A stretch of DNA of 63,675 bases, filler included, from Chrysochromulina tobinii (taxonomy: Eukaryota), in assembly GCA_001275005.1 (NCBI GenBank). It is 7 parts of 7 records of this genome, joined end to end, with 100 filler letters (N's around TTAATTAATTAA, not from the genome) between each part and the next. Parts side by side here need not be neighbours in the genome. Positions count along the whole stretch, not along the records: positions 56,112 to 61,901 come from JWZX01000710.1; 6 more parts are not named here. One strand, 5' to 3'. The notes beneath the pieces were generated by a model. That model was not told the DNA's origin. It worked only from the letters and a program-made list of their open reading frames with translations, and did not search any database. Position numbers and translations under genes: made by a program. Positions 6,265-62,001 of the stretch are shown here, one piece after another. How positions within the stretch are numbered: position 1 is the first letter of the stretch; each line of letters starts with the position of its first letter.

Positions 6265-6944
6265 CAGGAGTTCCGGTGTTGCCACTCGTCTTGCCCGTGC
6301 TATCTGCAGAGATCTCTGGCCTCGTTCGTTTGAGACGTGCTGGAGAGAGTGGTGCTCAGTGCACAGTGGTGCAGTGTTGCGTGCACCTGCACGGTCCGCG
6401 TATGTCCGCGACAACGAACGACAGCTGAAACCGGACCGGACGCAGCGGCGCAGGACGGTGTGGACCGCCGGCGACCGCCGCGACGGACACACGTTGGGTT
6501 GGATCTTGGTGAGCGCATAAGCGCGGTGGGCAGTCGGTCGGGGCGCCCGGCGCGCGGGGCCGCGAGCCCGCGTTCACCACCGCGTCACGGCCCCCGCCCG
6601 CGCTCAACATCGGACGAACTCGCCCGCCCCCCCACCCGGTTGCATGTGCTTTGCACACAGTGTTTTTAGTTATGTCTCCAAAACAGTCACGAGAACTCCG
6701 GCACATGGCACTCAGGAGACGCACCGGTGGACACCGACGCGAGATGGTACGAGCGCGTAGACTCAGGTGGACACGCGATGGTATTCCAAGACATGTCACA
6801 TGACGACAGTGCAGATGACATGGCACTCTCCGGAGCTCAAACAGACCAGAATTGGGGTCGCTTGCTGCCCTCTGCACGCAGGGTATGGGGTAGAGAGTGC
6901 CTGTTCCTGCCTCAATAGCTTTGGAGCGCTACTCAATCTGTGCC

Positions 6945-17931: not shown

Positions 17932-18031
17932 NNNNNNNNNNNNNNNNNNNNNNNNNNNNNNNNNNNNNNNNNNNNTTAATTAATTAANNNNNNNNNNNNN
18001 NNNNNNNNNNNNNNNNNNNNNNNNNNNNNNN
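17932..18031. other. Artificial contig linker
   Basis: N-run + TTAATTAATTAA (stops in all six frames) + N-run. Confidence 0.98.
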
Positions 18032-28652: not shown

Positions 28653-28752
28653 NNNNNNNNNNNNNNNNNNNNNNNNNNNNNNNNNNNNNNNNNNNNTTAA
28701 TTAATTAANNNNNNNNNNNNNNNNNNNNNNNNNNNNNNNNNNNNNNNNNNNN
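28653..28752. other. Artificial contig linker
   Basis: N-run + TTAATTAATTAA + N-run. Confidence 0.98.
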
Positions 28753-35565: not shown

Positions 35566-38500
35566 GCGCGCGGGCCGGCACACTGAGAGTGGTCTCCACT
35601 GAAAGCGGAGTGCCGGGCCGCAGAGATGCGCGCTGCTGCCGAGAGGGGGCGAGGCGAGAGGCTGTGAAACAGCCGAAGAGCGCGGCACCCGTAGAGCTGG
35701 GGCCTTAGGGCTCGAGCTCGATGTCGCGATCGGCGTCGCGTGCAGCCTTGCCCAGGGCGCCGGCCGCGATTGAGGTTTGAAGGTGGGCCACCCATTCATC
35801 AGCGTCGAGCCGGGGAAGGTTGGCCGCGGTAGTGGAGTCGACGAGCTGGTCCATGGACGAGATGATCCAGGCGGTGCGCTCGATGTCGTTCATCCTCGCG
35901 TAGATGAGGAGCGCTTCCTCGCTCTTCCAGCGAAGGATGGCCATGATGCGCTCGGGGGGGCAGCCCGCGGCGTACAGCGCACAGGCAAGGTAGATGCGGA
36001 AGGAGTGCACGGAGAAGCACGCGCACTCCGCCTCGGTGAGTCCAGCCCCCTCGCGCAGCGCCTTGACGAAGAGGCGGTCCAGCAGGTCGTGATGCCACTC
36101 GACGCCCAGCGTCGGCCCGAAGAGCGGCGTGAGGGGGGCGGTTGCGGCAGTAAGGCCGGCCCGCAGCGCGGCCGTGGTGAGGGCCGCGAGCGAGCGACAC
36201 GCGTTGCGCGCGGCAACGGACGAGAATGGGAGCCACGACGGCTTGGAGCCGAAGAACTCGCCAAACGCATCGTTCTTGAGGGAACCGAACACAAGCCAGC
36301 AGCCGTCGCCCTCAGTGATGGGGAGGATCTCGGTGAGGGTGGGGAGAGCGGTGATGATCCCTCCCACGCGCCACTTCAAGCTCGCAAAGGTGAGGCGGCC
36401 CTTCTTGAAAGCGGTCGCTTTGTGCGCCTTCGAGACGTCTCCCTTGCGCATGCCGGTCTCGGCGAGCGTCTCCACCGTCGCCCGGAAGGCGACCAGCGAG
36501 TACGAGGTCCAGTCCCATGGGGCGCGCAGCATGGCCAAGATAAGGACGTTGGTGAGCGGATTCTTTCGCGAGGGTGCGAGGGAATCAGTGCCATGGAGCT
36601 CGACATACTGGCGCAGCATTCCTGTAACAACCTGAACGGCGATGGTGAACGGCGCCATCTTGTATCCGCGCTTCTTGTGCTCACGCGCCACCGCGTAGAG
36701 CTTGTTGAGGGCGTTCCGCGGGTTAGCCGCCGGATCCTTCTTGGATCTCGGCTGCATCCGTGCGTACATGTGGAGCAGCGCGAGCGCCGGTAGGATGAGC
36801 TCACGACGGTGACCTACCGGGTCGAGTCCCGTATTGGCCGCGACGTCCGTGCGCCACATCGGCGTCCCGAGTGCCGCGCACGCCTTGCGCCACGCCTCGA
36901 GATGATACTTGTCCTTCTCGTTCGTGGAGTCCGCGAAGGCGGACTCGAGGTGCTCGCGCATGACGTCAAGCAGTCCCGCAAGCTCTTCCTCGCGACCTGG
37001 TAGAAGAGCCATAGGCGAGTCGTCTTGAAGAAGAGCCGCCTCCCAGGTCGTCGGTGCACGAGCCGCAGGGGTGGCGGCTTGGACGGGTGCCGGCCAGCGT
37101 TGCTGCCGCGCCCCAGAGCGCATACCCACCGGCCGAAGCGCCGGTGCCAGCGACAGCTGAGGAGTCAGGCGCCCGGGAGGGCGCGTGAGCGGCGGTGGAG
37201 CTCCCGTGGTCGTCCGCAGCGGCGTGGGCACTGCCGTCCGCCAAGGCATGGGAGGCGTCAGGGGGGGCGGCCCGAGGTTGGGCTGCGATGCCGGCGGCCT
37301 GCTCGTCAAGAATGGCGGCGGTTTCGTGCGCGCGCCGTCACCTGCGACCGTCGATGAGAACTCGGCACCGATGCAGAGCTCGGTGTCGGTGAGCCCGTGC
37401 GAGGATGCCACCGCGGCGCCAGTGAGGAGGGCGGCCATGACGCCCCGCGCTGCCCGTGCGACACGTGCGGGCGCGGGCGCAATGCGAGGGCGCGCGCGTG
37501 CGCCGGCGCGAGCGAGAAGGGGCACCGATGCTGCGCGGGTAGTCCGCGGCGGCGAGGGCGGCGGCACCACATGGGCAGCCGGGTGCGCGATGGTCGCGGC
37601 AGGCGGCGGGCGCGCCGATCTGTCAAGCGCAAGCATCTCGAGCTCGCGCTGCTCAGTGGAGAGGGCATCAAAGTAGTCAGCGACGCGTTCCATATATGCA
37701 AGGAAAGCGGCGGGAACGTCACGCTTCACCGGCGCGAGGCGGAGGTGGCGCATAACTTCACGCAGCTCGTCATCACGCCCGCGGCTGCCCATGTCACAGA
37801 TCGGATTCCCGACACCGTACTCGTGCGAGCAGTAGCACCGGTTCAGGACAGCCTTGACCTCCAGAAGCTCGAGCATCTCGTCGTGCATGAAGCGCATGAG
37901 GCGGCTCTCGCGAACCGCCGACGCCAGGATTGTCGGGACGACGAGTGAGTCGCCAGGGATGGCGATGCCAACTGCACCAGCAAGATCGGCTGCGAACGTG
38001 ATGAGGCCGAATGGCCCTTGGCCGGCAAACTCAAGAGCGACAATGGGCCATTGCGCGTAGCGCGTGCCCAGCAGCGGCAGGGTGGCGTAGTAGCCGTAGA
38101 GGTTGGTGGTGATGCCCGGGCAGCCCGTGCCCTTGAGCGCCGCGTCCGAGTGGATGCGGTGCATCACTTGGCCGGTCGGTGGGCGGCTGTGGAAGACCGA
38201 GCCCAGCATCGAGGAGCCCGTCCGTGACTCGAGAGCCCCAGTCCAGGCGACGAAGGCACGCGATGAGCGGCGCGTAAGCGGAACCCGAAGTCCGTCATCG
38301 AGTTTGGCACCCCCCCGGCGCTCGACGAGCCGATCGCCCTGTGCGGCCATCGCGCGGACGGCCAGGGCGCCCTGCTCAAGAAGCGCCTGCTGGTGCAGGA
38401 AGGGGTCGGATACGGCGGAGAGCAGTGGGCGCAGCCCGGCCAGCCACACGCGATGGCCGAGGATGTGCGTGCAATTCCCGTCCGCACGCGGCGCCGTGTC

Positions 38501-41500
38501 GAGACCATCAGAGGTTGGGCGAGCTGCGATGGCCGCCGTGGCTGGATGGTGCCAGATAGAGCCTTGCTCCGGATGAGTTGCCGACAGGTGCTCGAGGCCG
38601 TAGATGACGTGGGCGTCGGCCGCCGCTGCTATCGCCGTAAGGGCGAAGTGAGCAAGTGCCGTTTCATCGCGGACAGACCGAGCGAAGGCGCGCGGGATCG
38701 GCGTGATCCCACCAGGTTCCGCAGGCGAACGCAGCCGCGGGATATGGTGGGAGGAATAGGTGCGGGAGGGAGGGGCAGCGAACACGATGGCGTACACGCG
38801 CGCCTCGATCTCGCCCAGCAGCTGGTGCTGCACCTCTCGGCGCCGTAGGTCGAACTGATCCCCATTGGCAATGTCGTAGTTGACCACCGTAAAGCCGAGC
38901 GTCTCTCCGAGGGCAAGGAGGTCGAGCGTGCCATGCTGTGCGCGACCACCAAAAAGGAAGAGGGCTCTGGTACGCCCCATGGGCGCGCGCACAGGAGCCC
39001 CTACCGCCTCAGCCGCAGTGCGGATGCGATGCAGAGTGTCGATGCCGTCGTAGAAATTGTACATCAGCTGCTTGGGCAGGACCAGAGTGAAGACAAAGTG
39101 GTGCAGGAGCCCACCGAGCTCTCGCATCTCGCGGACAGTGAGCGTGCCGGCCTGTGCGCCGCGAAGAGCCGTGAGTGCTTTGAGCACTTTGGCTGGTGAG
39201 AGGTAGGAGAGGAGCGCGGTAGCAAGGTACTGCCCCCCAACCCACTCGCCTTGAACTCCGACGCAGCGTTTGCACGGGTCGCTGCGCCGGAGGTTAGCGG
39301 CGGTACACTCGCGCCCCCAGTGCTCCGTCGCGTCGCAGAGGAGGACGGGCCCGATTGTGAAGATCCGCGGGTCATCCGTATAGCCGAAGGCGATGAGGAG
39401 GTACCCTTGCACATGCGCGCCCACTTCGAGCTCGGCGGCGACCTGTGCGCGCACGGCGAGCCACCCGGCGAAGGCGGGGCAATCGGCCGCCCACTTGTCA
39501 TATGTCGCGAGGTGATCACGGTGGAAATCATCCTGAAACTTGTTGCAATACTCGGTGACATAGCCTTGGGCGTACCGCGACGAGGGCACCGTGCCCATGC
39601 TCACACAACCCGCCTGGATGAGAGTAAGTGCGACATCGGGCGTATCAGCGAGAAGGCACGCGATGAGACGCGTGATGAGCTCTTGGGTGATCGCGGACGG
39701 GTCGAGCAGCATCAACTGCATGTAGATGCGCTGTCGGAAGCTCACAGCGAGTTGATGAAAGAATTTCGCAAAGTCGTCACCAAAGCTGAGCACGTCGAGG
39801 CCAAGCATCTCCGCCGGCGGCGTGAGGACGACGATCGCGAGGGTGAGCATAAAGAAGAAGGGCTTGAGCTCCGGCGGTAGGATAGGTGCGCCAAATCCAC
39901 TCCCCGGGGTCGGCCCAAATGGGCGGTACGGTGGGCGAGCGCTGATCGCCTGTACGCTGAATCGGGCAGGGTCGCGCCTCACGTCGCCTGCGGAAGCGAG
40001 CTCGCGCGCACGGAGCGCTCTATCGAGTTGTGAGCCGATGCTCGCGTTGAGGGAGAGAACAGGGGCTGCCGTCCCGAAGGTCGTCATGGCGCCAGCGGGG
40101 GGTGCCGTGTCGTTGTTGACCATGCGCCACGATGTCAGGTTGCTCTTCACGACACACCCCACGCACGAGAATCTGCCTGGTGCAGTGAGCAGGTTGAGCC
40201 GACCCTGTGCCAAAGAGGCCGCCGAGCGTGCCGCAAACCATCCTGCGTCGATCATTTCGCGCAGCGTCTCATGTACAGAAGCGAAGCCGTCGGCAATCGA
40301 GGACATGGGCGGGATCATAACCAGCTGCCCGCCGAGTTGCGTGAAGAACTCGACCCCGTGGGTGGTGCAGGCGTCGCGCAGTGCGGCGTCCGGTGAGCCC
40401 TTGAGGAGGTTGGCGGCATAGGTGGGGTCGAGGCTGAAATTGGGCGCGCGAGAGAGGTCCGCGAGCGCAATGCGCTCGCCGTCGTGGCAGAGCACATGGC
40501 CGGCGGCGATGAGCGCCGCTGCCCACGGGTAGCACGAATTCTCATCAAGGTTGCACGCGAACAGCTTCGGCTTTGGGCAGCCCTGGGCACGTCCCGTCTT
40601 GGCTGCATGCAGCAGCCACCGCCATGTAGCTTGTTGGCATTCAAGAGCGGCTGCATAGGCACCTGGTAGCAGGACGGTGTCCCAGTCGAGTGCATCTGAC
40701 GGGACGCAGCCTGAGGGCGGCGGGGGCGGCAGGGGCGGCAGCGGTGACGATGCAACCGATGGCACGTATGGGAACGGGACACGATGCAGGCGGGTGTCGC
40801 TCGCCGAGTAGCACTGGCTACGCAGCGTCGCGTTGATGGCATTGAGCTGCAGTGGCTTACACACCGCCAGCCATCCGGCGCACTCAGCGCGGTCGACGGG
40901 GGAGCGTGTGGTGTCGGCAATGCGCCGTTCGTATTCATGGCGCAGCGCGCGCATGCTCGCCTGAGCTTTCTCCACGACCGTGTCCCATGGGACTGGGTGA
41001 GCACGCGCCTCGACGAGCACTTGCTGGGGCTCGAGTGCCAGCTCGGGCTGAGCCCCCACACGTACGCCGTCAGGAAGAGCAGCCGTGGGCTGGCGGAAGG
41101 CACACGCTCGCGCAAGCGCAAGAGCGGCCACACGAGCGACCGTCGCGTCGCCGTGGAGAGCGGCGAGCGTCGCCCACGCGATATTGTTCGAGGATTGAGC
41201 CTGTGTCAAGGGAGTGCGGGTCCATTCATCCGTGACGTCGCGTGCGGTCATCTCCCAGTCCATCGGCGGCGGGTCGGTGATGAGGGCGCCCGAAACAACC
41301 AAGCCCAGCGTCTCGATCTCGAAATAGTAGAAGGCGTGCACGTCCGTCCGGCCGGGGAAGAGCGCCGCCGCCCATCTCGCCGCGTCCGCGTAGTCAGTCT
41401 CACGCGAGATAAAGGATCGGCGCTTGCCAAAATAAGCCTCGCCACACTCGTCGAGCGGTAGACCAATCCGAGGTGCCGTGCCGTCAAAGATGAGGGGCAC

Positions 41501-41743
41501 GAACACATGCGCCGATGCAGCCTTGGCCGAGGCAGTGAGCTGGACCGTTGGGACTTGGGTCGGGTCGAGCCCGGGCGGCTTGTCCGCCCACGACGCAGTT
41601 TTCGTCGTGGAGCCCTGCAGTGCGATCGAAGACGGCTGTGCGCCCACCCCGAGCCTGCTGCCTTCATCCTTGACGGTCACCATCGAGGGATCCCGCACGT
41701 GGTTTAGACAAGAGATAACCGCAGTGTTCTCAAGTGTATCCAC
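35566..41743 (-). mobile_element. DIRS-like tyrosine-recombinase retrotransposon (termini not captured)
   Basis: The whole contig is one ORF with RT, RNase H and tyrosine recombinase in DIRS order. Confidence 0.88.
35705..41743 (-). CDS. Polyprotein: RT - C5-MTase-like insert - RNase H - tyrosine recombinase
   Basis: RT: DDFAKFFHQL, CVSMGTVPSS, YTDD (~39371-39382). RNase H: IHSDAA, ALEF, GDS, NPICDMGSR. YR: ETGMRKGD, LKND, HSFR, ILRWKS, LIYARM. Insert: LFLFGG..YDI..FDL..AAPPSRTYS. Confidence 0.9.
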   Translation of the reverse strand: MDTLENTAVISCLNHVRDPSMVTVKDEGSRLGVGAQPSSIALQGSTTKTASWADKPPGLDPTQVPTVQLTASAKAASAHVFVPLIFDGTAPRIGLPLDECGEAYFGKRRSFISRETDYADAARWAAALFPGRTDVHAFYYFEIETLGLVVSGALITDPPPMDWEMTARDVTDEWTRTPLTQAQSSNNIAWATLAALHGDATVARVAALALARACAFRQPTAALPDGVRVGAQPELALEPQQVLVEARAHPVPWDTVVEKAQASMRALRHEYERRIADTTRSPVDRAECAGWLAVCKPLQLNAINATLRSQCYSASDTRLHRVPFPYVPSVASSPLPPLPPPPPSGCVPSDALDWDTVLLPGAYAAALECQQATWRWLLHAAKTGRAQGCPKPKLFACNLDENSCYPWAAALIAAGHVLCHDGERIALADLSRAPNFSLDPTYAANLLKGSPDAALRDACTTHGVEFFTQLGGQLVMIPPMSSIADGFASVHETLREMIDAGWFAARSAASLAQGRLNLLTAPGRFSCVGCVVKSNLTSWRMVNNDTAPPAGAMTTFGTAAPVLSLNASIGSQLDRALRARELASAGDVRRDPARFSVQAISARPPYRPFGPTPGSGFGAPILPPELKPFFFMLTLAIVVLTPPAEMLGLDVLSFGDDFAKFFHQLAVSFRQRIYMQLMLLDPSAITQELITRLIACLLADTPDVALTLIQAGCVSMGTVPSSRYAQGYVTEYCNKFQDDFHRDHLATYDKWAADCPAFAGWLAVRAQVAAELEVGAHVQGYLLIAFGYTDDPRIFTIGPVLLCDATEHWGRECTAANLRRSDPCKRCVGVQGEWVGGQYLATALLSYLSPAKVLKALTALRGAQAGTLTVREMRELGGLLHHFVFTLVLPKQLMYNFYDGIDTLHRIRTAAEAVGAPVRAPMGRTRALFLFGGRAQHGTLDLLALGETLGFTVVNYDIANGDQFDLRRREVQHQLLGEIEARVYAIVFAAPPSRTYSSHHIPRLRSPAEPGGITPIPRAFARSVRDETALAHFALTAIAAAADAHVIYGLEHLSATHPEQGSIWHHPATAAIAARPTSDGLDTAPRADGNCTHILGHRVWLAGLRPLLSAVSDPFLHQQALLEQGALAVRAMAAQGDRLVERRGGAKLDDGLRVPLTRRSSRAFVAWTGALESRTGSSMLGSVFHSRPPTGQVMHRIHSDAALKGTGCPGITTNLYGYYATLPLLGTRYAQWPIVALEFAGQGPFGLITFAADLAGAVGIAIPGDSLVVPTILASAVRESRLMRFMHDEMLELLEVKAVLNRCYCSHEYGVGNPICDMGSRGRDDELREVMRHLRLAPVKRDVPAAFLAYMERVADYFDALSTEQRELEMLALDRSARPPPAATIAHPAAHVVPPPSPPRTTRAASVPLLARAGARARPRIAPAPARVARAARGVMAALLTGAAVASSHGLTDTELCIGAEFSSTVAGDGARTKPPPFLTSRPPASQPNLGPPPLTPPMPWRTAVPTPLRTTTGAPPPLTRPPGRLTPQLSLAPALRPVGMRSGARQQRWPAPVQAATPAARAPTTWEAALLQDDSPMALLPGREEELAGLLDVMREHLESAFADSTNEKDKYHLEAWRKACAALGTPMWRTDVAANTGLDPVGHRRELILPALALLHMYARMQPRSKKDPAANPRNALNKLYAVAREHKKRGYKMAPFTIAVQVVTGMLRQYVELHGTDSLAPSRKNPLTNVLILAMLRAPWDWTSYSLVAFRATVETLAETGMRKGDVSKAHKATAFKKGRLTFASLKWRVGGIITALPTLTEILPITEGDGCWLVFGSLKNDAFGEFFGSKPSWLPFSSVAARNACRSLAALTTAALRAGLTAATAPLTPLFGPTLGVEWHHDLLDRLFVKALREGAGLTEAECACFSVHSFRIYLACALYAAGCPPERIMAILRWKSEEALLIYARMNDIERTAWIISSMDQLVDSTTAANLPRLDADEWVAHLQTSIAAGALGKAARDADRDIELEP

Positions 41744-50149: not shown

Positions 50150-51987
50150 ATGATGGGTGATGCGTTTGCCCCCGTCAATCTCTACGAGCAGGGCAGTCAG
50201 GAGGCCAGGGGCGAGCAGGCTCGCATGGTGCGCACTCGCGCTTACGCACGCTGCCCCGCCCTTCGCGCACATGCAGCACGAGTGGCTTGTCGAGGAGGAT
50301 TGAAGTTAAGAGATGTACCAAACCTTGATGGGAATGCGGAGTCATCCTTCGGCAGACTGAGACAAGCACACGCCCGCTATACCTTTTGCACGCCCCCCAC
50401 GAGTGCCCGAAAGGGTGAGCGGGCCGCTCACCACGCTTCGCTGCCGCCCTCCCGGAAGCCTTCGCGCAGGCCTCCATCGTCGGCGCACTCGCGATCGCCG
50501 ACCTTGTCAAGTCGTCCCTCGGGCCCAAGGGCATGGACAAGATCCTCCAGTCGACGAGCCGGGGCGGCAACGTGTCGGTGACCAACGACGGCGCGACGAT
50601 CCTCAAGTCGGTGCTCATCGACAACCCGGCGGCCAAGGTCCTCATCGACATCTCCAAGGTGCAGGACGACGAGGTGGGCGATGGCACCACCTCTGTGTGC
50701 GTGCTCGCGGGCGAGTTCCTGCGCCAGGCGGCCGAGCTCATCGAGAAGAAGATGCACCCGCAGACAGTGGTGGCGGGGTACCGGCTGGCGCGGGACGCGG
50801 CGCTCAAGGCGCTCGACACCGCCGCCGTCGACCACTCCAAGTCGCCCGAGGACTTCCGCCAGGACCTGATCAACATCGCCAAGACGGTGCTCTCCTCGAA
50901 GGTTGTCGCGCAGGACAAGGAGCACTTTGCCGAGATCGCGGTGCAGGCGGTGCTCAAGCTCAAGGGGAGCACGAACCTCGACCAGATCCAGATCATCAAG
51001 CGCATCGGCGGCACGCTCACCGACTCGTACCTCGACCCCGACGGCTTCCTCCTCGACAAGAAGATCTCGGTCGGCTGCCCCAAGCGCATGACCAACTGCA
51101 AGGTCATCGTGGCCAACACGCCCATGGACACGGACAAGGTCAAGATTTACGGCGCCAAGGTGAAGGTGGACTCGGTGGCCAAGGTGGCCGAGATCGAGGC
51201 GGCCGAGAAGGCCAAGATGCTCGACAAGGTCGACCGCATCCTCGCGCACGGGTGCAACGTCTTTTGCAACCGGCAGCTCATCTACAACCTGCCGGAGCAG
51301 CGGATGGCCGACGCGGGCGTGATGGCCATCGAGCACACCGACTTCGACGGCACCGAGCGGCTCGCGCTCGTGCTCGGCGCAGACATCGTCTCCACATTCG
51401 ACACGCCCGATAATGTCAAGCTCGGCCGGTGCGACCTGATCGAGGAGGTCATGATCGGCGAGGACAAGCTCATTCGCTTCTCGGGCTGCCCCAACTCGCA
51501 GGCCTCGTCCATCGTCATCCGTGGCGCCAACGAGCACGTCGTGGACGAGGCGCACCGCTCGCTGCACGACGCGCTCTGCGTGCTCTCGCAGACGGTCAAG
51601 AACACGTGCATCATCCCCGGCGGAGGTGCCACCGAGATGCTCATGGCGCAGGCCGTCGATGAAGCTTCCCAAGAGATCGGAGGCAAGCAGTCGCTCGCCA
51701 TGGAGGCGTACGCCCGCGCGCTGCGTGCGATGCCCATGCACATTGCGGACAACGCGGGATACGACTCGGCCGAGCTCGTCGCCGAGCTACGTGCGAAGCA
51801 CTTTGCGGGCAAGCACTCGTTTGGGCTGCAGATGGACACGGGCACCGTAGAGGACATGTGGGCCCACGGCATCTGCGACTCGTACCAGGTCAAGAAGCAG
51901 GTGGTCATTTCTTCGTCCGAGGCGGCCGAGATGATCCTGCGCGTGGACGACATCGTGCAGTGCGCCCCGCGCAACCGCCAGCAATAG
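50150..51987 (+). CDS. CCT2: T-complex protein 1 subunit beta; intron 50228-50469
   Basis: [72 protein letters not shown]; phase-0 GTGCGC..GCAG intron. Confidence 0.97.
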
Positions 51988-52282
51988 AGAGCGTGCGCCG
52001 TGGGCGGGCACGCCGCTGGGCGCCACCAGGGGCCGGAAGAGCACTGAGAAGCTCGCCGGGGTCAGCCGCGAGGCACCCGACATCCGGGGGCGACTGTACG
52101 GGGGCGACGCCGACGGGGCGAGTCTCCAGCCGGCACGGACTGGAGTCTCCACCCGGACGAACAGCAACGCGACACAGGGTGGGGCTGCACTTCCTCTATG
52201 TGTCACACAATGTGTTCGGGACGCTCTGTGGAGTGTCTCGAGGGGACCGAGTTGGCGGCCGAGTCTTAATGGCATCTTTAAC

Positions 52283-54040
52283 ATGGTCTTCACAGTCGAG
52301 TTCACACGAGGTCCGACGGAAATGCCTGAATCGGCCGCCCGAGCGATGCCCAAGGCCAAGCCGGCGAAAGGCTTCGGCACGGCCACCGTGGCGCCCAACC
52401 CTCAAGATGAATGCAGCTTCGAGACGACTGTTTTCGACAAATACGAGATCAATTTTAGCGCCAAGGCCATCCGGTACTCTGTGCAGGTCATTCGGAAGCC
52501 GAAGATCATTGAGCCGTTTGGGCTGAGCATCGTGTTTCACGAGGCGCTGCCAGAGTCGTGGAAGACCGATCCGCCGTCTCGCCTGCTGATGGGATTGGGC
52601 ATGGCTGTGATCTCGCACGTGTGGACAGGCTTTTGCACGCCGACGATCATCGTGCGTGCCGGGCGGCTCTCACCCGATGATGTCCGATTCTGGCAAGATG
52701 TGTACACGTATGGGCTCTGCGAGCACTTCCTCATCAATCAAATCGAAAGCCTGGACGGCCGCGCCGGCGGCACGCTCATCGTTGACATCCGTGTCGTTGT
52801 CGATTCCGACGAGTCCAAGACGACACCGCAACCCGCCGCCACCACGTCCGCTGCGCCGCCACCCGCCGCGGCGGTTTCAGTACCGAAGCGCGTCATGGTG
52901 CCGGTAGGCGGCGGCAAGGACAGCGCGACCGTCCTGCAGCTGATGCGCAAGGCGGGCGTGGCGCAGGTCGTGCCTTTCTTCCTTGCCGATCCGACGGGCG
53001 AATGGCAGCAGTGTTGGCGCTACCGTGCCGTGTGCGCGGCGGCGGGTACGGAAGCGCCGTGCATCGTGGACTTCGACTGGCCGTCCGCCAATTACCAGCG
53101 GTTCCACGCGATCAAGCGCTCGCGCCCGGGAATGCAGAACAAGTGGGACAACTCCGCGCGGCTATGGGCGGCTCTCTGCGCCTTTACCGCCGCAACTGCG
53201 GCGCTCGTGCGCGACTGCGAGTACGTGGCCGTTGGCAACGAACGATCAGCCAATTTAGGCAACGGCGTCTCATGGGGCGGCCACGTTGTGAACCATCAGT
53301 ACGACAAGAGCTTCGCCTTCGAGGCGCGCGCGCACGCGTACTTGCGACCGTGCGGCGTGTACTACTTCTCGGCCTTGATGCACCTGTGGGACGTGCAGGT
53401 CGTCGAGCACTTTTGTCGGCTGGCGCGTGCCTTCGTGCCGCTCATCATCTCGTGCAACGAGCCGCTCGGCCGCGCCAATTCTCGCTGGTGTGGCCAGTGC
53501 GAAAAGTGCGCCTTCGTCTTCGCCATGCTTTCAGCCTTTTTATCGCTTCCGCACGAAGCGATGGCCGTCTGGGGCGATGACCTGCTCGAAACCACCGAAA
53601 TCTTTCCGAGATTTGATGAGCTCTGCGGGCGACGCGAGCAAGTGCGTCTCCCCGACGGCCGCATGCTCCCTGGGCGCTTGGCGCTACAAAACACCCCTCC
53701 AGGGCCCGAGTCCCGCTGCCTGCGCTACTGCCCAGGCTGCGACTCTCTCAAGCCCCTCGACTGCGTTGGCACCGTCGAGGAGGCGAAGCTTGCTCTTTGG
53801 CTTGCGCGCCGGCGCCGTCTCGAGCACATGGCCAGCGGAGGCGGCGGCGGCGGCGGGCTGCCAAAGTACTTTTCGTCGCATGGCCCGTGGAAGCAGGTGC
53901 AGGCGGAGCTGGATCGAGCACCGGAGGCCTCCCTCGCGCTCTTGGACGAATGGAATGACGACAACCTGCTGCCTTCGTGGCTCGAGCCCACGTGTCGCGA
54001 GCTCTTTCAGGAGCGCGTCAGGGTCACACCCGTAAAGTAG
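52283..54040 (+). CDS. murL: MurL-family (UDP-MurNAc-L-Ala-L-Glu epimerase-like) PP-loop ATPase
   Basis: VPVGGGKDS, GNERSAN, VNHQYDKSFAFE, ISCN, WCGQCEKCAFVF, KPLDCVGT appear in the order seen in bacterial MurL. Confidence 0.8.
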   Translation: MVFTVEFTRGPTEMPESAARAMPKAKPAKGFGTATVAPNPQDECSFETTVFDKYEINFSAKAIRYSVQVIRKPKIIEPFGLSIVFHEALPESWKTDPPSRLLMGLGMAVISHVWTGFCTPTIIVRAGRLSPDDVRFWQDVYTYGLCEHFLINQIESLDGRAGGTLIVDIRVVVDSDESKTTPQPAATTSAAPPPAAAVSVPKRVMVPVGGGKDSATVLQLMRKAGVAQVVPFFLADPTGEWQQCWRYRAVCAAAGTEAPCIVDFDWPSANYQRFHAIKRSRPGMQNKWDNSARLWAALCAFTAATAALVRDCEYVAVGNERSANLGNGVSWGGHVVNHQYDKSFAFEARAHAYLRPCGVYYFSALMHLWDVQVVEHFCRLARAFVPLIISCNEPLGRANSRWCGQCEKCAFVFAMLSAFLSLPHEAMAVWGDDLLETTEIFPRFDELCGRREQVRLPDGRMLPGRLALQNTPPGPESRCLRYCPGCDSLKPLDCVGTVEEAKLALWLARRRRLEHMASGGGGGGGLPKYFSSHGPWKQVQAELDRAPEASLALLDEWNDDNLLPSWLEPTCRELFQERVRVTPVK

Positions 54041-56111: not shown

Positions 56112-56307
56112 CACCAGCGTGTCCCCAGACTCTCATCTTCGGCCGACCGAAGGCCACACACCGGCCCAAGGCAACGCACGCGTGAGCGCGGGCACGTACC
56201 CCCCCACCCCTCATATCACATTGGGGCCGGGAGGTGGAGTGAGCGTGGGGGGACCGCGAAGAAACTGAACTGAACTGAACGAGCCGAATTCCGCGTCCTT
56301 TCGCTTC

Positions 56308-58044
56308 ATGTCCTCAGATGCGCGCGTCGGCCTCGCCGAGGCGCGTCGGCCTCCTCGTCCGAGCCTCGGCGGCGCCGAGAGGCTGGTCGGGTCGCCGCCC
56401 ATGGTTGCCCAGGCGCGCCGCAAGGTGCCCGTCGTGCAGCTCTTTCTCAACCTTGAAGGGCTGCCGCGCTGCCGCATGCGCGTGGCAGTGCTCGGCGACG
56501 GCAATATGGAGCTCGCGGGAACGCGCCCATCCGAGCGGCTCGACCCCATGTTCGAGGAGCACCTGGAGCTTTTTGGCAATGCGGCGGGCAAGGATTCGTC
56601 GCAGCTGCTAACCTTTGTGGTGCAGCACGTCGGGCCAGGCGAGCGCTGGCGCGAGGCAACCATCAGAACGATTGCGACAGCGCACATCGCGAGCGACGAG
56701 CTACGCCGCGCGGGCCATAACAACCCACACGAGGGCGCGGCAGTGCCGCTGCCGCTGCGGCTCGTCGAGGACGCGTGGCCCGAGGGTGCTCCTCCACACG
56801 CGTCCCTCTCCTACGGCGACCAGCGCCAGCCGGCGCGCCCGACGCTCCACTGCTACGTGCACGCGGGCTACCACTACCAGTCGTCGCGACGGCATTCGTT
56901 CGGAGCGTCGCCTCGCCGGAGTATCTCGGGCGGCGTGGATGAGGCGCCCGAGCACTCGCCTCGGGCAAGCATGGCCATGCCCTCGCGCCGGCCGATCCTC
57001 GAGCTCGCGTACGCGTGTACACCTGGCGGCGGCTCGACGCGCGCGCTCGTGCTCCATGTGCGCGGCCGGAACACGAGCTCGCACCGCGCCGTGCGCCTCG
57101 GCCGCGCGAGCTTGCATTTGGGCGGCGTGCCAGGCGGTGGCATGGGCGCTTGGGAGCTCATACCCAACGACGCGGCTGTCGCCACTACCGATGGCGCCAC
57201 CCTCCCCCCCGGCGGTCGCTTCGAGAGTCATCTTCTCTTGCAATGGGTGTCTCCCGGCGCGGTCACGAGAAGCCGGGAAGGGAGCTGTAGCAGCATGAGA
57301 AGCCGGGAGAATAGTCTCGGCGGCGGCTTGGGCAGCGGCTTGGGCAGCGGCTTGGGCAGTGCGAGGAGCAGAGAAGGTAGTCTTGGCGGCAGCGGCGGCT
57401 CGGGCGGAGGCGCGGCGTACGAGTCGCAGCTCGCCGAGCTCCGTGTCGGCTATGCGATCGAGCCCCTCTCCTTCTCCGAGGACGATGAGGGCGAGGGTAT
57501 CGGCGACGGCGAGCCGGCTCAGGGCGCCGTCGCGGGTGCGGTTGCTGCGAGCAGCTCAGGTCCGCGTGTGCGCAGCGTGCAGGTGAGCCTGCCTCCACTG
57601 GTCGCGCTGCAGCCCTTTAGCATCCGCACACACGGCCTCTCGCCGGAGGGCTTGCGTGTGGGCGGGCTGGCCGAGCTCGAGCTTGAGCTCGCGTGGCCGA
57701 CGCTCGCTGCGGCAGCGGCGGGGCGCGGCGCCGCGTGGATGCAGCCGTGGAGCGTCGTGGCTGAGCTCCTACCGAGCTCCGATTGGATTCTCCTCGGACT
57801 CTATCGACAGCCCTTCCCGGTGGGGCTCGAGCGTGCCGCACGTGATTCCGTCGTGCTGCGTTGGCGACTGCTGGCGCTCACCGCGGGCTACGTGCCGCTG
57901 CCCGCGCTCACGCTGCACAAGCTGCCCAACGCAGCCGAGCCTGGCGTGGGCGTGGGGCAGGGCATCGAGCTGCCCATGCCGGCGTATCTGATGGGCTCGA
58001 CTGTCCTTGTGGCCGCAAAGGACGCGGTGGTCGAGGTGGTTTGA
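56308..58044 (+). CDS. TRAPPC10/11-like C-terminal region (probably a last exon)
   Basis: Terminal WILLG...VVLRWRLLALTAGYVPLPALTL pattern typical of TRAPP large-subunit C-terminal domains. Confidence 0.5.
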   Translation: MSSDARVGLAEARRPPRPSLGGAERLVGSPPMVAQARRKVPVVQLFLNLEGLPRCRMRVAVLGDGNMELAGTRPSERLDPMFEEHLELFGNAAGKDSSQLLTFVVQHVGPGERWREATIRTIATAHIASDELRRAGHNNPHEGAAVPLPLRLVEDAWPEGAPPHASLSYGDQRQPARPTLHCYVHAGYHYQSSRRHSFGASPRRSISGGVDEAPEHSPRASMAMPSRRPILELAYACTPGGGSTRALVLHVRGRNTSSHRAVRLGRASLHLGGVPGGGMGAWELIPNDAAVATTDGATLPPGGRFESHLLLQWVSPGAVTRSREGSCSSMRSRENSLGGGLGSGLGSGLGSARSREGSLGGSGGSGGGAAYESQLAELRVGYAIEPLSFSEDDEGEGIGDGEPAQGAVAGAVAASSSGPRVRSVQVSLPPLVALQPFSIRTHGLSPEGLRVGGLAELELELAWPTLAAAAAGRGAAWMQPWSVVAELLPSSDWILLGLYRQPFPVGLERAARDSVVLRWRLLALTAGYVPLPALTLHKLPNAAEPGVGVGQGIELPMPAYLMGSTVLVAAKDAVVEVV

Positions 58045-58323
58045 GAGATCTAGCTCTTAGGTATCCCGTCCTACGGGTCTCGTGATCCTCTTCATAGTCG
58101 AGGTGTCGTGATCCTCTCTTCATAGCCGATACCGTGTGATAGGAGTACAGTATCAGTATGATCAGAGGTATCTCGACATCGTCGCTGTGTCCTGTGTGCG
58201 AGTGGCGGCTCCCTTACTCTGAGTTCGTCCGGCCATTATATTGGCCTATACCGAAAACACCTCACCTAGACCTACATGTATCCTGACGGCCGCACAACGG
58301 TGCAAAACGGACCCCTCCCTCTA

Positions 58324-58457
58324 CCTAACCCTAACCCAGGCAAGGAGCCGGAAGCGGAACTCCCTGCTCTGCCACCACAACCCAGGCAAGGAGCCGTAAC
58401 CCTGCTCTGCCACCACCCTAACCCAGGCAAGGAACCGGAACCCTGCTCTGCCACCAC
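58324..58457. repeat. Three ~50-bp degenerate tandem units containing telomere-like CCTAAC
   Basis: aacccaggcaagga(g/a)ccg...ccctgctctgccaccac three times; cctaaccctaaccc at the start. Confidence 0.75.
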
Positions 58458-58713
58458 GGACTAACTCACGAACGACCCCGTCAGACCGTCGGCGCATACA
58501 TGCACACATCTCACTTGCCTCTTGCGGCGCCGCCCGTCGGACCGTCGGCGACAAACACAAGGCCTACACCCTCCAGAGGACTGCTCTGAGTCACGACTTA
58601 ATCACAAGCATCCCGTCGGACCGTCGGCGCAAACGTGCACACTTGCGGCGCCGGCGGTTTCATCACGACTCGACCCGAACCCGAGCGCCGAACCCGAGCG
58701 CCGAACCCGAACC

Positions 58714-61700
58714 TTAAATGGAATCCGCAGATTCTGCCGTCACCCCCTCAACCCCCGACCCGGCAGTAGTAGTCGCTGGACTTTTGTAGTCGCCACGATT
58801 GGCCTTTGCGCCGCAGAGTGCACCTTCGGGTCTGAAGCGACGGAAGTCCATCACGCTTCCCATCACGAAGCGTACGAGCGCGACCGTGGTGCAGACATGC
58901 AAGCAAAGTTCGATCCACCCCTTTGAAGGGTCGGTCCGAAGCTGATCAGACAGACCATGCGCCACGGCTGGCAGGTGAGTGTAGAAGGCTACTGCCGTCA
59001 GCCCCAAACTGATCACCATTTGGGATAGCCAGCCGAGCTTGATGATCGGACGGTCGAGCCACGCAACCCAGCCTTGGGGGATGTTAAAGTCGGTGTGAAG
59101 ACGGTTGAATGCCCAGCCGAGCTTATACACAACACTTGGCACGTGGCTCGGTGCGACGGCATGGTGGCCGAGCGCGCCTGCGAGCCGATTCCACTCAAGG
59201 AGCCAATTGCCTGCGCTCAGTACTTGTGTGATTCTGAGCCCCGCATGGCAGAGGCAGAGGACGAGGACCAGCTCTGGAATGCCCGAGGCCGCGAGAATCC
59301 AGAAAAGGGTGCCAATCGTGCCAGCGGTCGCAGCGGCGAGCCCACCCTTCCGGTCAGCGCGAACTTGGGCAATACACGCCGACTGGATGGCGGTGAAGCC
59401 GCCGACCGCGCCAACCAGCGCGCGTGCCCAGGTGAGAGGGAACCAGAGAGGGAGCGTGCCGCAGAGCAGTACGACACCGACGTGCGACGAGATCCCGGCG
59501 TATCCCAAGGCCGAGTTGGGGGAGACACCTTCCATCGACCGAATGAGGAGGCCGGTCACGGGGAATTGGGACGATTTGATGAGGGCACTGATGACAAGGC
59601 CGGCAGCGCAGATGTCCTTCGAGTTTGCCGGATAATGGTCGAGCTTCGCCTGCATTGCGCCCGCGGAGAGGGTTGGATACCAGGATGGGTATGCGTTCGG
59701 GAGAGCGAATGCGGCGGCGAGCAGAAGGCCGATGTCCGACAGACAGTAGACGAGGAATGCGAAAGTCGCGTTATCTCGAGCAGTCGGCCGGTCCGAGAAA
59801 GCGCCTATGAGGAAGAAGGACGCGAAGCCAAGACACGCCCATCCGAGCGACATCTCATGGAGATCCGATGCCGAGACTACCAGATTGAAGCCAACGAGCA
59901 ACATCGTCGAGAGGATTGCAAATCGGCCAAACATCGTCTCGCCCGTCAAGTAGCGGTGAGAGAAGACGAGGACGCACAGGGTGATGGCGGTGGCGCACGC
60001 CGAGACGGCCGGAGCGGCCGCCAACATTGGCGGGCGGGCTTCTTTGAACGTCATGCCCATCGGACCGGCGCACGATACGATGGCTCCCGCCATGCAGAGG
60101 AGCGTTTCCGCGAGCTCTTTGATGGCCAACCTGCCGTACCAGTTCATCTGAGGGGCTGGCGAGACGTGCTCGACCTTAGCCGTGGTGGGCGGGTAGACCA
60201 ACTTGGCGGTGTGGGTCGTGTGGGTGGTTGAGCCCGAGACAGTATGGGTGGCTGCACCCGGAGGGAGGTCGTACGCGTCGGGCGAGAGCAGCTTGAAGCT
60301 GCCGCCTTCCTGGCGATAGAAGTCCTTGGAAACTGGGTCTCTGATCACCATGCGCACCCAGTCGTTGTACACCAGGTTGGCGAGCTCGTTGCGCCGTTTG
60401 AGGACGTCCTCGACGCGTGAGACGGGCGCGTCGATCACGTAGAGTGCGCGCACCGGTGTTTGCCACTCCCCCATTTGGGTGGGTAAACCGACGAGGAGGT
60501 CGCCGGCTGAGCCTTGGCTCACTCCGAAGTGGCCAACGAGGTTCATGGGCGCTTTGGTGCCCGCTCCCCCGCTGATGGTGGAGAAGAGGTACTCGAGGTT
60601 GATGCCGGATGCGACGATGAGGGCGGGGGCGAGGATGGTCTCCAGATTGGATCCTCGGTCATCGTCGTTGAACGGGTCGTACGAGGGGAGGAAGGGGCGA
60701 CGATCGAGGAAGCAGCCTTTAGTGAGGACTCTCCGACCAACGACGACGCTCGCATTGGTCGCATGGCCGAGCTCGGGCCGCGCCTGGCCGATATCGACGG
60801 AGCGCGTCTTCACATGCGCGATCGCCTGCGCTGGGGTCGAAATCTGCTCGGTGCCGAAGCCTACGATGCCGATAAACTTGGCGGAGCGCTCGAGGGCGTT
60901 CTTGCAGCGTGAATTTTCGAGGATGGCGATGGCGCGCTCGAGAGCCTGCTTATGAGTCGCAGGCACGGCCTCCAAATCATACAGCTCGACGAGGTCGGCG
61001 GTCGTGTCGTGATAGCCTCCTACAAACCACGTGTCACTGGGGATGACAATGCCGAATTTTTCATCGAGTGCCTGCCGGATCGCGGGGTCGTTTGCGCAGC
61101 GCGCAAACATCCTCGCGTTCGCGCCGCCCGAGCGCCCTCCACACGCGCCGCAGTTGTACGCAGCGTCGAAGGGGTTGTTGACGGTGCGAGAGCCGTGGGC
61201 CAGCGCGATGACAAGCGGAGCAAAGTGCTGACGAATACCAATGTTATGAAACATCTGCTTGAGGCGCGCGGCCGCCTCTTCTGTAGTGAACGGGATGTCA
61301 AAGTCCGTTTCGGATGGGGGCACGAAGCATTCCATGCACATGTCCGCGAGCTTGCGCCGCGCCGTCGGCAGGCAGGATACCATCCACAGGTGTACAAGGT
61401 TGCAGACGCTGAGGCTTGCGCCGCAAACCAGCGAGGTGAAGGGGTTCAACGACCAGGTTTCGAAGAGCCAGCCGAAGCGAGCGACGAGCCGAGCGCGCGC
61501 AGTGTGCTTTGGGTTCTTCTCGACCTCGACCATCTTGTGGCCCGCGGGGGGCACGGAGCCCTCGGGGGCGGAGATCCACTCCTTGGAGCCCGGGCACGCC
61601 TTGTAGTGGCGGATGGCGAGATGGAAGAAGCCGGGCACGCCGAAGGTCTCGATCTCGTTCGCCGAGGTCGCGCATGCCTCGATGTAGCGGCGGAATGAGC

Positions 61701-61901
61701 ACTCGCGCTCGTCGAAGCACGTGTAGAACATCAGCGACGGACGCTCCTTGGGCGGCGGCGTGGTTCCATCTGTAGGGTACCGCGCGGCTTGCGCGCTCGC
61801 GGGCGACGCCAGCGTGTTGTTGTTGATGGTGTTGAGCATGATCCTCTCGTACTCATCCTCGAGCTTCTCGAGGCCGGCGTGCGTCTCGCGTGTCAGGGGT
61901 A
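58714..61901 (-). CDS. dabA-dabB: DabA (DUF2309) - DabB (NuoL/ND5-like) fusion, putative inorganic carbon transporter; 5'-partial
   Basis: DabA: CFDERECSFRRYIE, ETFGVPGFF, HGSRTVNNPFDAAYNCGACGG, HDTT, RPELG, SYDP, INLEY, GDL..GLP.Q, LVYNDWV. Then a multi-TM region with LIKSSQFP..SMEGVSPNSALGYAG. Frame open to the contig edge. Confidence 0.92.
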
Positions 61902-62001
61902 NNNNNNNNNNNNNNNNNNNNNNNNNNNNNNNNNNNNNNNNNNNNTTAATTAATTAANNNNNNNNNNNNNNNNNNNNNNNNNNNNNNNNNNNNNNNNNNN
62001 N
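61902..62001. other. Artificial contig linker
   Basis: N-run + TTAATTAATTAA + N-run. Confidence 0.98.

What the first reader, a model, noticed from the sequence alone, without database searches (positions are those of the whole stretch)
58714..61901. Eukaryotic single-chain DAB inorganic-carbon pump: DabA fused N-terminally to DabB
Seen: one ORF of over 1060 aa. Its first ~520 aa carry the DUF2309/DabA motifs, including the beta-carbonic-anhydrase-like Zn ligands Cys (61719-61717), Asp (61713-61711), His (61197-61195) and Cys (61152-61150; 15 residues after His). A Thr/His-rich linker follows, then a multi-TM NuoL/ND5-like antiporter domain. The same contig carries a TRAPP-subunit-like gene and telomere-like repeats. 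Known: DabAB/MpsAB are prokaryotic two-subunit, membrane-potential-coupled CO2/bicarbonate accumulation systems, normally encoded with the membrane subunit first. To my knowledge they are not characterised in eukaryotes. Inference: a horizontally acquired, A-B-fused energised carbonic anhydrase that could be an unrecognised component of an algal CO2-concentrating mechanism. A one-gene pump would also be attractive for engineering. The N-terminus, and so the targeting signal, is cut off by the contig edge.
Basis: partly seen in the sequence, partly recalled or inferred. Interest (0 to 1): 0.93.

Follow-up and report, generated by a model that had tools for sequence, protein, structure and literature searches.

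The report
Eukaryotic one-chain DAB carbon pump
A freshwater alga transcribes one nuclear gene that joins a zinc carbonic-anhydrase head to a complex-I-type membrane channel, and the same fusion occurs in a fungus, amoebae and other protists, where it likely turns CO2 into bicarbonate at mitochondrial, plastid or cell membranes, a job so far described only for bacterial and archaeal pumps.

Summary
One ORF (58714-61901, minus strand) carries DabA (PF10070, intact Cys-Asp-Arg/His/Cys site) before a NuoL-like domain. A 100%-identical metagenome contig supplies the missing 5' end (1481 aa, no intron). RNA contigs span the junction, and the neighbouring gene is spliced. The host is a Chrysochromulina (haptophyte).

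It is not an algal oddity. About 100 A-before-B fusions form one clade that includes a chytrid, Paulinella, an ancyromonad, an amoebozoan and Amoebophrya. Their sister is the untested bacterial dabA-nuoL-nuoM operon type; no such fusion was found in prokaryotes.

Many members have mitochondrial-type presequences, a haptophyte-like subclade has plastid-type ones, and this copy starts with a hairpin resembling plasma-membrane H+-ATPase TM1-2.

The channel keeps Asp178/Lys229/Lys305/His338. Several residues that enforce coupling in DAB1/DAB2 are changed, however, and this copy is among the most divergent. Best reading (0.5): a rewired, gradient-coupled CO2 hydratase. Main rival: an uncoupled, membrane-tethered carbonic anhydrase. 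No activity or location is shown. My literature searches found no eukaryotic DAB.

The parts
58714..61901 (-). 3' 1061 codons of a 1481-codon, intron-free gene: [TM hairpin]-DabA-linker-NuoL-like TM2-11-NuoM-like terminal hairpin. The first 420 codons lie beyond the contig edge and are read from locus L085:6741-8000
   Evidence: (L085 100% identical over 3187 nt)
60355..61863 (-). DabA catalytic core (aa 13-515 of the window frame), double beta-carbonic-anhydrase fold
   Evidence: PF10070 E 7.5e-129; 9rd0_A E 2.8e-51; model matches CsoSCA 8thm_A Z 12.4, rmsd 4.7, 291 aligned and 1ddz_B Z 10.7, rmsd 4.7, 274 aligned
61705..61719 (-). Cys61-x-Asp63-x-Arg65: first Zn ligand and Asp-Arg dyad
   Evidence: invariant in the 100-101 of 122 homologues that cover the columns
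61150..61197 (-). His235 and Cys250, Zn ligands
   Evidence: invariant in the 111 of 122 homologues that cover the columns
61324..61512 (-). finger/elbow helix pair; lacks the DabA2 Glu444 equivalent, carries a eukaryote-specific acidic residue (Glu147)
60763..60771 (-). Leu377 and His379 in place of Trp656 and Leu658 of the DAB 'RPEWGL' motif
   Evidence: role of these sites from 10.64898/2026.05.01.722082 and 10.64898/2026.03.13.711513
60154..60264 (-). Thr/His-rich flexible linker replacing the stop/start junction and TM1 of the membrane subunit
   Evidence: pLDDT <50 at aa 552-580; membrane domain aligns to NuoL from residue 23-26 on
59089..60153 (-). NuoL-like membrane domain TM2-TM11 with Asp722 (NuoL D178), Lys775 (K229), Tyr800/His806 (H254 site and +6), Asp849/Lys851 (D303/K305), His885 (H338), Arg889 (K342); E144 and H334 sites lost
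   Evidence: PF00361; Z 21.8, rmsd 3.8, 330 aligned to 7p7l_L; residue counts; NuoL numbering read from the alignment
58852..59043 (-). C-terminal two-helix hairpin, likely derived from TM12-13 of the operon's third, NuoM-like subunit; family has Asp/Glu after the G-x-P-x-T-P break (72 of 79), this copy has Ala980
   Evidence: hhalign P 62.5%, E 7e-5 to the tail of long bacterial DabB, which matches the third subunit at P 99%
58545..58713 (-). transcribed stretch past the stop codon (likely 3' UTR)
   Evidence: RNA contigs of two runs end at 58545 and 58568
61902..62001 (.). assembly spacer (44 N + TTAATTAATTAA + 44 N); DNA beyond it is another contig

Best explanation
The gene encodes a one-chain DabA-plus-NuoL-like protein of a eukaryote-wide family, which likely works as a membrane-bound carbonic anhydrase whose CO2-to-bicarbonate step is predicted to be driven by proton flow through its own channel. 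Shown: nuclear location, transcription as one unspliced message, intact zinc site, both folds, one eukaryotic clade, sister relation to bacterial dabA-nuoL-nuoM operons. Inferred: (1) the operon was fused once, losing TM1 so that the channel starts on the same side as the enzyme, and keeping only the last hairpin of the third subunit; (2) the head faces the negative side of the membrane, CO2 diffuses to the buried zinc, and H+ entering through the channel (terminal acid, Arg/His of TM11, His+6, Lys229/Asp178) moves the head through the conserved Asn-Asp bridge so that bicarbonate is released on that side; (3) location is set by a swapped N-terminus: mitochondrial matrix side in most heterotrophs (bicarbonate for carboxylases, recapture of respired CO2), plastid in a haptophyte-like subclade, and plasma membrane or another secretory membrane for this copy, where it would trap CO2 as cytosolic bicarbonate in low-carbon fresh water.
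For: Zn ligands invariant. AF2 model of both domains pTM 0.87, pLDDT 83 with beta-CA and NuoL folds. Channel residues kept over great distances: D178 92/93, K229 93/93, K305 92/93, H338 92/93, Arg at K342 93/93, His at +6 from the H254 site 92/93. Head-to-channel bridge named in the DAB1 preprint kept: N530 97/97, N901 97/97, G911 96/97, D277 as Asp/Glu 93/93. E144 is lost in all 93 eukaryotic rows but present in 87/87 bacterial sisters, the same change that favours DAB2 activity (Ile151). Acidic residue in the terminal hairpin in 72/79. Targeting: 23 of 38 N-terminal extensions outside the algal subclade pass an Arg-rich, acid-free rule, against 51 of 1110 internal windows and 0 of 11 bacterial DabA; signal-plus-transit-like N-termini in the sister subclade; TIGR01647 TM1-2 match, E 3e-4 to 8e-4, the only hit among 18,950 models.
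Against: No activity, location or CO2 response was measured. The His essential in both solved pumps (DabB2 H260, by offset NuoL H254) is Tyr in 86/93; the finger Glu444, essential in DAB2, is absent; Trp656, His684 and Pro704, where single changes uncouple DAB2, and Cys494 of DAB1 are replaced in nearly all family members; Leu658 is His in 97/97. NuoL H334 is lost in 93/93. The bacterial sister clade has no functional test in the papers I read. This copy lacks the terminal acid, departs at 28 of 258 conserved columns (third most of 80) and shows pN/pS 0.46-0.67 among five close copies. The targeting calls come from a home-made rule on automatically called starts, and the P3A match is weak (no PDB or Pfam hit; sister P0002 does not hit the model).
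Confidence: 0.5

Rival explanations
1. The family is a loosely coupled or uncoupled beta-carbonic anhydrase tethered to a membrane; the NuoL-like part anchors or regulates it, or moves protons only to buffer those released by hydration.
For: His at the Leu658/Leu825 site (97/97), the position of the hydrogen-bond donor of ordinary beta-CAs and of the proposed CsoSCA proton shuttle; natural replacements at Trp656, His684, Pro704, Cys494, sites where laboratory mutations uncouple DAB; loss of H254, H334, E144 and Glu444.
Against: Five buried charged channel residues and the Asn-Asp bridge are kept in 92-97 of 93-97 rows, which a mere anchor would not need; Leu658Gln did not uncouple DAB2; most of the same changes are shared with the bacterial sisters, which keep a whole extra channel subunit (79 of 121 loci).
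Confidence: 0.27
2. The family works as a pump, but this Chrysochromulina copy is under relaxed selection or changing function after duplication and retargeting.
For: 28 of 258 conserved columns changed; pN/pS about 0.6; two near-identical copies with different upstream flanks in the same samples; differences cluster in TM4-5; terminal acid lost.
Against: Open 1481-codon frame in L085 and L081 and 1485 in L082; zinc site and core channel residues intact; transcribed in all 5 RNA runs laid, which were chosen as holders; pN/pS between copies 98-99% identical includes unpurged polymorphism; L083 has a frame break near the 3' end whose cause was not examined.
Confidence: 0.12
3. The coupling runs the other way: hydration of respired CO2 (in mitochondria) or the released proton is used to move H+ or Na+ outward, serving pH or membrane-potential control rather than carbon capture.
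For: Many members look mitochondrial and sit in non-photosynthetic hosts; such ion export was proposed for YbcC operons in PMC5700660 and a Na+ link for MpsAB is cited in 10.64898/2026.03.13.711513.
Against: CO2 hydration offers little free energy near equilibrium (own knowledge); both solved pumps consume the gradient.
Confidence: 0.08
4. The gene is bacterial contamination or a misassembly of two adjacent bacterial genes.
For: No intron; closest non-fused relatives are bacterial operons in the same order.
Against: Independent contigs 97-100% identical carry the same fusion among eukaryote-type genes; the upstream neighbour is spliced at GT..AG in 4 of 4 RNA runs; GC3 0.77 lies at the low end of the window's genes, 0.77-0.93; 7 of 12 other fused loci have eukaryote-type neighbours; 0 of 80 GTDB loci are fused; named eukaryotes carry it.
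Confidence: 0.02

Closest known systems
'Clade C' ybcC/dabA-nuoL-nuoM(-sulP) operons of bacteria (COGNAT, PMC5700660; gene-neighbourhood description only)
   Same: Sister group in all trees; dabA first; His at the Leu658 site, no finger Glu, Tyr at the H254 site with His at +6, Arg at K342; tail of the third subunit recognisable in the eukaryotic C-terminus.
   Different: Two or three genes (0 of 80 fused) against one chain; TM1 lost; E144 and H334 kept in bacteria, lost in eukaryotes; organelle-type N-terminal extensions only in eukaryotes.
DAB2 (DabA2/DabB2) of Halothiobacillus neapolitanus, PDB 9rd0; 10.64898/2026.03.13.711513; 10.1101/476713
   Same: PF10070 + PF00361; Cys2His zinc site with Asp-Arg dyad; finger helices; K229/D178 pair kept and E144 lost.
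   Different: Two chains, membrane gene first in DAB2-like loci; needs Glu444 and His260; has Trp656/Leu658; prokaryotic.
DAB1 (DabA1/DabB1/DabC) of Thermocrinis albus; 10.64898/2026.05.01.722082
   Same: Same head and channel; a NuoM-related extra part; N700, N901, G911, D277 bridge residues kept.
   Different: Three chains; DabC has no channel residues, whereas the eukaryotic hairpin usually keeps an acid; DWxxxRPEWGL Trp/Trp/Leu and NNPYESALDC Glu/Asp replaced.
Natural one-chain DAC of Acidimicrobium ferrooxidans and other actinobacteria (PMC6689103)
   Same: Both domains on one polypeptide.
   Different: Membrane part first (as in P0336, and as implied by the B-to-A engineered fusion said to mirror it); an independent fusion in the opposite order; bacterial.
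MpsAB of Staphylococcus aureus (PMC6689103, PMC8552792)
   Same: Same two families; shows that heterotrophs use such systems for bicarbonate supply.
   Different: Two genes; proposed Na+/bicarbonate cotransport; not compared residue by residue here.

Membership tests
DAB/DAC family (broad) | PF10070 domain with Cys-x-Asp-x-Arg ... His-x14-Cys zinc site | tested here: met
DAB/DAC family (broad) | NuoL-like PF00361 partner with conserved channel residues | tested here: met
   (D178, K229, K305, H338, Arg at K342)
DAB/DAC family (broad) | Energy-dependent, one-way CO2 hydration; rescue of CA-free E. coli | not testable with these tools
   needs expression and uptake assays
DAB2 type | Finger glutamate (Glu444) | tested here: not met
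   Glu in 34/34 DAB2-like and 12/12 DAB1-like rows; Leu/Ala/Gly/Thr lead the column in the 97 eukaryotic rows; Cys or Ala in this copy depending on the alignment
DAB1 and DAB2 types | DWxxxRPEWGL motif (Trp816, Trp823/656, Leu825/658) | tested here: not met
   RPELGH here; His 97/97, Leu 96/97 at the Trp site
DAB1 and DAB2 types | Essential channel His (DabB2 H260, Ta H229) | tested here: not met
   Tyr 86/93 with His six residues later 92/93; equivalence to NuoL H254 inferred from the K235/K229 offset
Bacterial clade C (dabA-first) lineage | Groups with dabA-first operons in a tree | tested here: met
   SH 1.0 (FastTree, 208 of 259 rows) and SH-aLRT 100 (IQ-TREE LG+G4 and LG+C20, 49 of 57 rows)
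Bacterial clade C (dabA-first) lineage | Signature residues (His at L658, Tyr/His shift, Arg at K342, no finger Glu) | tested here: met
Bacterial clade C (dabA-first) lineage | NuoM-like third part | tested here: inconclusive
   only a two-helix remnant; P 62.5% to long DabB tails, P 2.9% directly to the third subunit
Algal CO2-concentrating-mechanism component | Plastid targeting signal on this copy | tested here: not met
   N-terminus is polar, then a TM hairpin at aa 70-112; plastid-type signals are in the sister subclade
Algal CO2-concentrating-mechanism component | Induced by low CO2 and needed for growth in air | not testable with these tools
   runs are held as contigs, which give no expression level

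The most novel reading that the evidence does not exclude
Eukaryotes have had, since early in their history, a nucleus-encoded, proton-gradient-driven carbonic anhydrase built on a complex-I subunit: in the mitochondrial inner membrane of many protists and an early-branching fungus, redirected to the plastid in haptophytes as an unrecognised one-gene CO2 pump of their carbon-concentrating mechanism, and to the cell surface in Chrysochromulina by borrowing the first two helices of the plasma-membrane H+-ATPase.
Probability: 0.35. Interest if true: 0.95.

Novelty: new variant of a known kind. Interest (0 to 1): 0.85.

Why it matters
The DAB papers I read describe these complexes in bacteria and haloarchaea only. 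A eukaryote-wide, single-origin family puts an energised carbonic anhydrase candidate into mitochondria and plastids. It also gives haptophytes, whose carbon-concentrating machinery is poorly known, a concrete testable component, one copy of it in a cultured genus.

The family is a natural experiment on DAB coupling: it has changed the residues that two 2026 structures call essential or coupling-critical while keeping the rest of the channel. A naturally eukaryotic one-gene version with organelle targeting is the form wanted for chloroplast engineering, if it proves to be one-way. If it is only a tethered CA, it is still a new CA architecture in eukaryotes.

Tried and rejected
- No whole genome is held for the window, so copy number, other carbonic anhydrases and a plastid-type paralogue in this organism could not be checked.
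- Bacterial contamination: rejected.
- 'TRAPP-like' neighbour and telomere array: not supported.
- A mitochondrial (alphaproteobacterial) origin is not supported: 38 of 401 sampled genomes of that class have DabA, and of the 30 loci fetched 28 were membrane-gene-first and 2 unassigned; two Caulobacterales loci of the dabA-first type exist. The donor within the dabA-first clade is unresolved.
- A single-sequence fold of the N-terminal 553 residues failed (pLDDT 35) and was not used.
- Foldseek and VIA did not list 9rd0; that library ends in April 2026, so this says nothing.
- The N-terminal hairpin has no PDB or Pfam hit.
- Support values printed were displaced by re-rooting; only those are used. 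The 'DabB part' GC3 was out of frame; the corrected value is 0.74.
- The raw-read run X21 did not cover the gene.
- The Atlas returned bacterial or unrecorded one-chain DAB clusters at 0.89-0.90; a lead only.
- Ten second-round cluster look-ups gave no organism names.
- The Paulinella gene-transfer paper I tried is not held.
Full report
OBSERVATION. The window is a string of contigs joined by 100-nt spacers; the gene lies on contig 56112-61901 and runs off its edge. The frame 58714-61901 (-) is open for 1061 codons and carries PF10070 at aa 13-515 and PF00361 at aa 677-901. The four ligand codons are at the stated places and align with C351, D353, H524 and C539 of DabA2, the residues whose mutation abolishes rescue in 10.1101/476713 (passages). 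The neighbour's TRAPP label and the telomere array were not confirmed.

IT IS A NUCLEAR, TRANSCRIBED EUKARYOTIC GENE. Seven of ten window-derived proteins looked up were in the collection, and four of those seven clusters list Chrysochromulina tobinii or C. parva members. These genes are on other contigs of the window; the DAB contig has the same GC (0.64) and a GC3 of 0.77 against 0.77-0.93. Metagenome locus L085 is 100% identical over 3187 nt and supplies the start: 1481 codons, no intron. L081 is 99.5% identical, and L082/L084/L086 form a second copy (about 98%), with a different upstream flank in L084/L086. All 20 indexed holders are freshwater, lake, subsurface or mixed-culture runs. In two RNA runs, contigs cover 58545/58568-61901 and not the downstream neighbour gene. 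In four RNA runs laid on L085, the upstream neighbour is joined across GT..AG introns in all four, the DAB contigs begin at 6742-6870 (ATG at 6741), show no joint, and one contig per run bridges the DabA/membrane junction. These runs are of one year and type and may be one campaign; contigs give no expression level.

IT BELONGS TO A EUKARYOTE-WIDE FAMILY. A homologue search gave 153 hits; 108 of the 120 listed carry both Pfam domains. Two further searches added a few more. Of ten clusters looked up, six named an organism: Hyaloraphidium curvatum, Paulinella chromatophora, P. micropora, Fabomonas tropica, Amoebophrya sp. and Clydonella sp.. That these are a chytrid-grade fungus, two photosynthetic rhizarians, an ancyromonad, a parasitic dinoflagellate relative and an amoebozoan is my own knowledge. 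A second batch of ten named none. For 12 metagenome loci with the fusion, 45 of 65 flanking ORFs were scanned; seven loci have eukaryote-type neighbours (Integrator 3, Rsa3, CASTOR, mitochondrial carrier, Ca-dependent kinase, Cns1, TBCC) and five are uninformative. In an index-free search of 1.84 billion representatives, 11 of 133 new proteins had both parts, A first, 10 of them with the family's motifs, and 121 had the DabA part only. The family is patchy: few named genomes carry it, and most members are unnamed contigs.

ORIGIN. In GTDB, 0 of the best 80 loci (of 589 found in 37 of 64 parts) are fused, but 76 have the membrane gene directly after dabA; the other 4 end at a contig edge. They come from Planctomycetota, Verrucomicrobiota, Myxococcota, Bacteroidota, Bdellovibrionota and some Proteobacteria. 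Of 121 such loci, 79 have a third NuoM-like gene, 14 have its tail fused to DabB, and 28 show neither, most at a locus edge. This is 'clade C' of the COGNAT survey (PMC5700660, passages). On a DabA-core tree of 259 non-redundant rows all 97 fusions are one clade (SH 1.0) joined to the dabA-first bacteria (SH 1.0), with DAB1-like and DAB2-like rows outside. A 57-row A+B tree under LG+C20 agrees (100 and 100) and leaves the donor open. So the fusion arose once. Whether it spread by descent from an early eukaryote with many losses or by transfer between eukaryotes is not decided. The window's protein sits with P0002, next to a plastid-signal clade, inside a group that also holds Amoebophrya (99, 99, 100).

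ANATOMY. The model (pTM 0.87) has a double beta-CA head (CsoSCA 8thm_A, Z 12.4, rmsd 4.7, 291 aligned) and a NuoL-like domain whose alignment starts at NuoL residue 23-26. TM1 is therefore gone. Since NuoL TM1 starts on the outer side (own knowledge), dropping it is what an A-before-B fusion needs to keep the head on the inner side. The last two helices align with the tail of long bacterial DabB (P 62.5%, E 7e-5), itself derived from the third subunit (P 99%); the direct match to the third subunit is weak (P 2.9%). An Asp/Glu follows the helix break in 72 of 79 members, at about the place of NuoL K399/D400, which the DAB2 finger Glu444 is said to replace. This copy has Ala there.

COUPLING RESIDUES, FOR AND AGAINST. 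Kept in the family: D178 92/93, K229 93/93, K305 92/93, H338 92/93, Arg for K342 93/93, and the bridge N530 97/97, N901 97/97, G911 96/97, D277 as Asp/Glu 93/93 that the DAB1 preprint links to coupling (10.64898/2026.05.01.722082, parts 2-4 of 6 read). E144 is lost in all eukaryotic rows and kept in 87/87 bacterial sisters, as in DAB2 where its loss helps activity (10.64898/2026.03.13.711513, parts 1-2 and sections 8, 10 read). Changed: the His essential in both pumps is Tyr (86/93) with a new His six residues on (92/93); finger Glu444 is absent (the two preprints disagree on whether it carries protons); H334 is lost; Leu658 is His in 97/97, the residue ordinary beta-CAs have; and Trp656, His684, Pro704 and Cys494, where mutations uncouple the enzyme, are replaced in nearly all members. 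Most of these changes are shared with the bacterial sisters. The pattern fits a rewired pump or a relaxed one; sequence cannot decide.

TARGETING. By a simple rule (three or more Arg, net +3, at most one acid in the first 30 residues), 23 of 38 extensions outside the algal subclade look like mitochondrial presequences, against 51 of 1110 internal windows, 0 of 11 bacterial DabA and 1 of 15 in the algal subclade; 11 further proteins had no extension, probably miscalled starts. Eight proteins or loci of the sister subclade begin, by eye, with a hydrophobic signal and a Ser/Arg/Pro-rich stretch (P0003/L089, P0005, P0010, P0028, P0201, L092, L095, L097), the pattern of complex-plastid targeting (own knowledge); the rule itself flagged only two of them. 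This copy instead has 69 polar residues and two TM helices (aa 70-112). I recalled a likeness to TM1-2 of plasma-membrane H+-ATPases and tested it: TIGR01647 positions 24-80, E 3e-4 to 8e-4, the only NCBIfam hit; nothing in PDB or Pfam. P0002 has a similar hairpin but no model hit. A secretory or plasma-membrane location is therefore a moderate inference.

THIS COPY IS DIVERGENT. It departs at 28 of 258 columns conserved in 90% of the family, third most of 80, and pN/pS among five close copies is 0.46-0.67. Tests should include more conserved members.

WHAT IS IN PRINT. Ten full-text searches (DUF2309+eukaryot; DabA/PF10070/fusion; DabA+DabB+eukaryot+inorganic carbon; MpsAB+eukaryot; Chrysochromulina+carbon concentrating+carbonic anhydrase; UPF0753; PF10070; DIC-accumulating complex; C. 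tobin+transcriptome+bicarbonate; DabA+mitochondri+carbonic anhydrase+protist) listed no paper on a eukaryotic DAB. 'Eukary' does not occur in the two 2026 structure preprints or the 2018 preprint. Passages of PMC10880623, PMC8552792, PMC6689103 and PMC13399641 place the family in prokaryotes. The C. tobin genome paper (PMC4580454) has no DUF2309 in its text and no DUF2309, UPF0753, PF10070 or YbcC in 9 supplements. The library lacks most subscription papers, including the Scott-lab DAC surveys (recalled, not seen), and bioRxiv supplements were not seen, so a passing mention cannot be excluded. One-chain bacterial DABs are known. Earlier notes of this scan cover the bacterial sister clade but no eukaryotic case.

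VERDICT. Real, well supported as a gene and as a family; a new variant of the DAB kind, outside the DAB1 and DAB2 types and outside prokaryotes. Mechanism: gradient-coupled CO2 hydration 0.5, tethered uncoupled CA 0.27, relaxed copy 0.12, reverse coupling 0.08, artefact 0.02. Interest 0.85.

Noticed in passing
window 35705-41743 (-): 2012-aa ORF with a weak tyrosine-recombinase match near its end (PF00589, E 0.0012); possibly a DIRS-like or other mobile element
   Followed up: no
window 17984-21961 and 22228-28704 (+): Tra1/TRRAP gene with its central and ring domains in two long ORFs on one contig, each touching a contig edge
   Followed up: no
window 6945-10349 (-): Gly-rich protein with a GARP/Myb-like domain (PF00249, E 0.003)
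   Followed up: no
window 56269-58044 (+): Neighbour ORF with no Pfam hit; Atlas look-alikes are NPHP4-like C2/Ig proteins at a weak 0.76; not covered by RNA contigs in two runs
   Followed up: partly
window 58362-58457 and 58675-58710: 41-bp and 13-bp tandem repeats downstream of the gene, with scattered GGGTTA units; one 13-bp unit is missing in two RNA runs
   Followed up: partly
L084, L086 against L081, L085: Two copies about 98% identical with different upstream genes; amino-acid differences cluster in TM4-5, and several RNA and DNA contigs carry alternative letters at window 59901-59937
   Followed up: partly
L085:5291-6557 (+): Upstream neighbour has two acceptor sites for its second intron (5909 and 5935) in RNA contigs
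   Followed up: no
L110-L113 (P0098 cluster, 86 members): A second, distant freshwater family member (38% identity) whose conserved start lies upstream in another frame, suggesting an intron; host unknown
   Followed up: partly
L070:9451-11649 (+): SulP-like gene directly after the dabA-dabB pair, judged from the sequence printed, as described for clade C
   Followed up: no
window 51935-54040 (+): 701-aa ORF with a PVGGGKDS loop and a CxxCxxC motif resembling a MurL-type PP-loop enzyme (resemblance recalled; no Pfam hit at E<=1)
   Followed up: no
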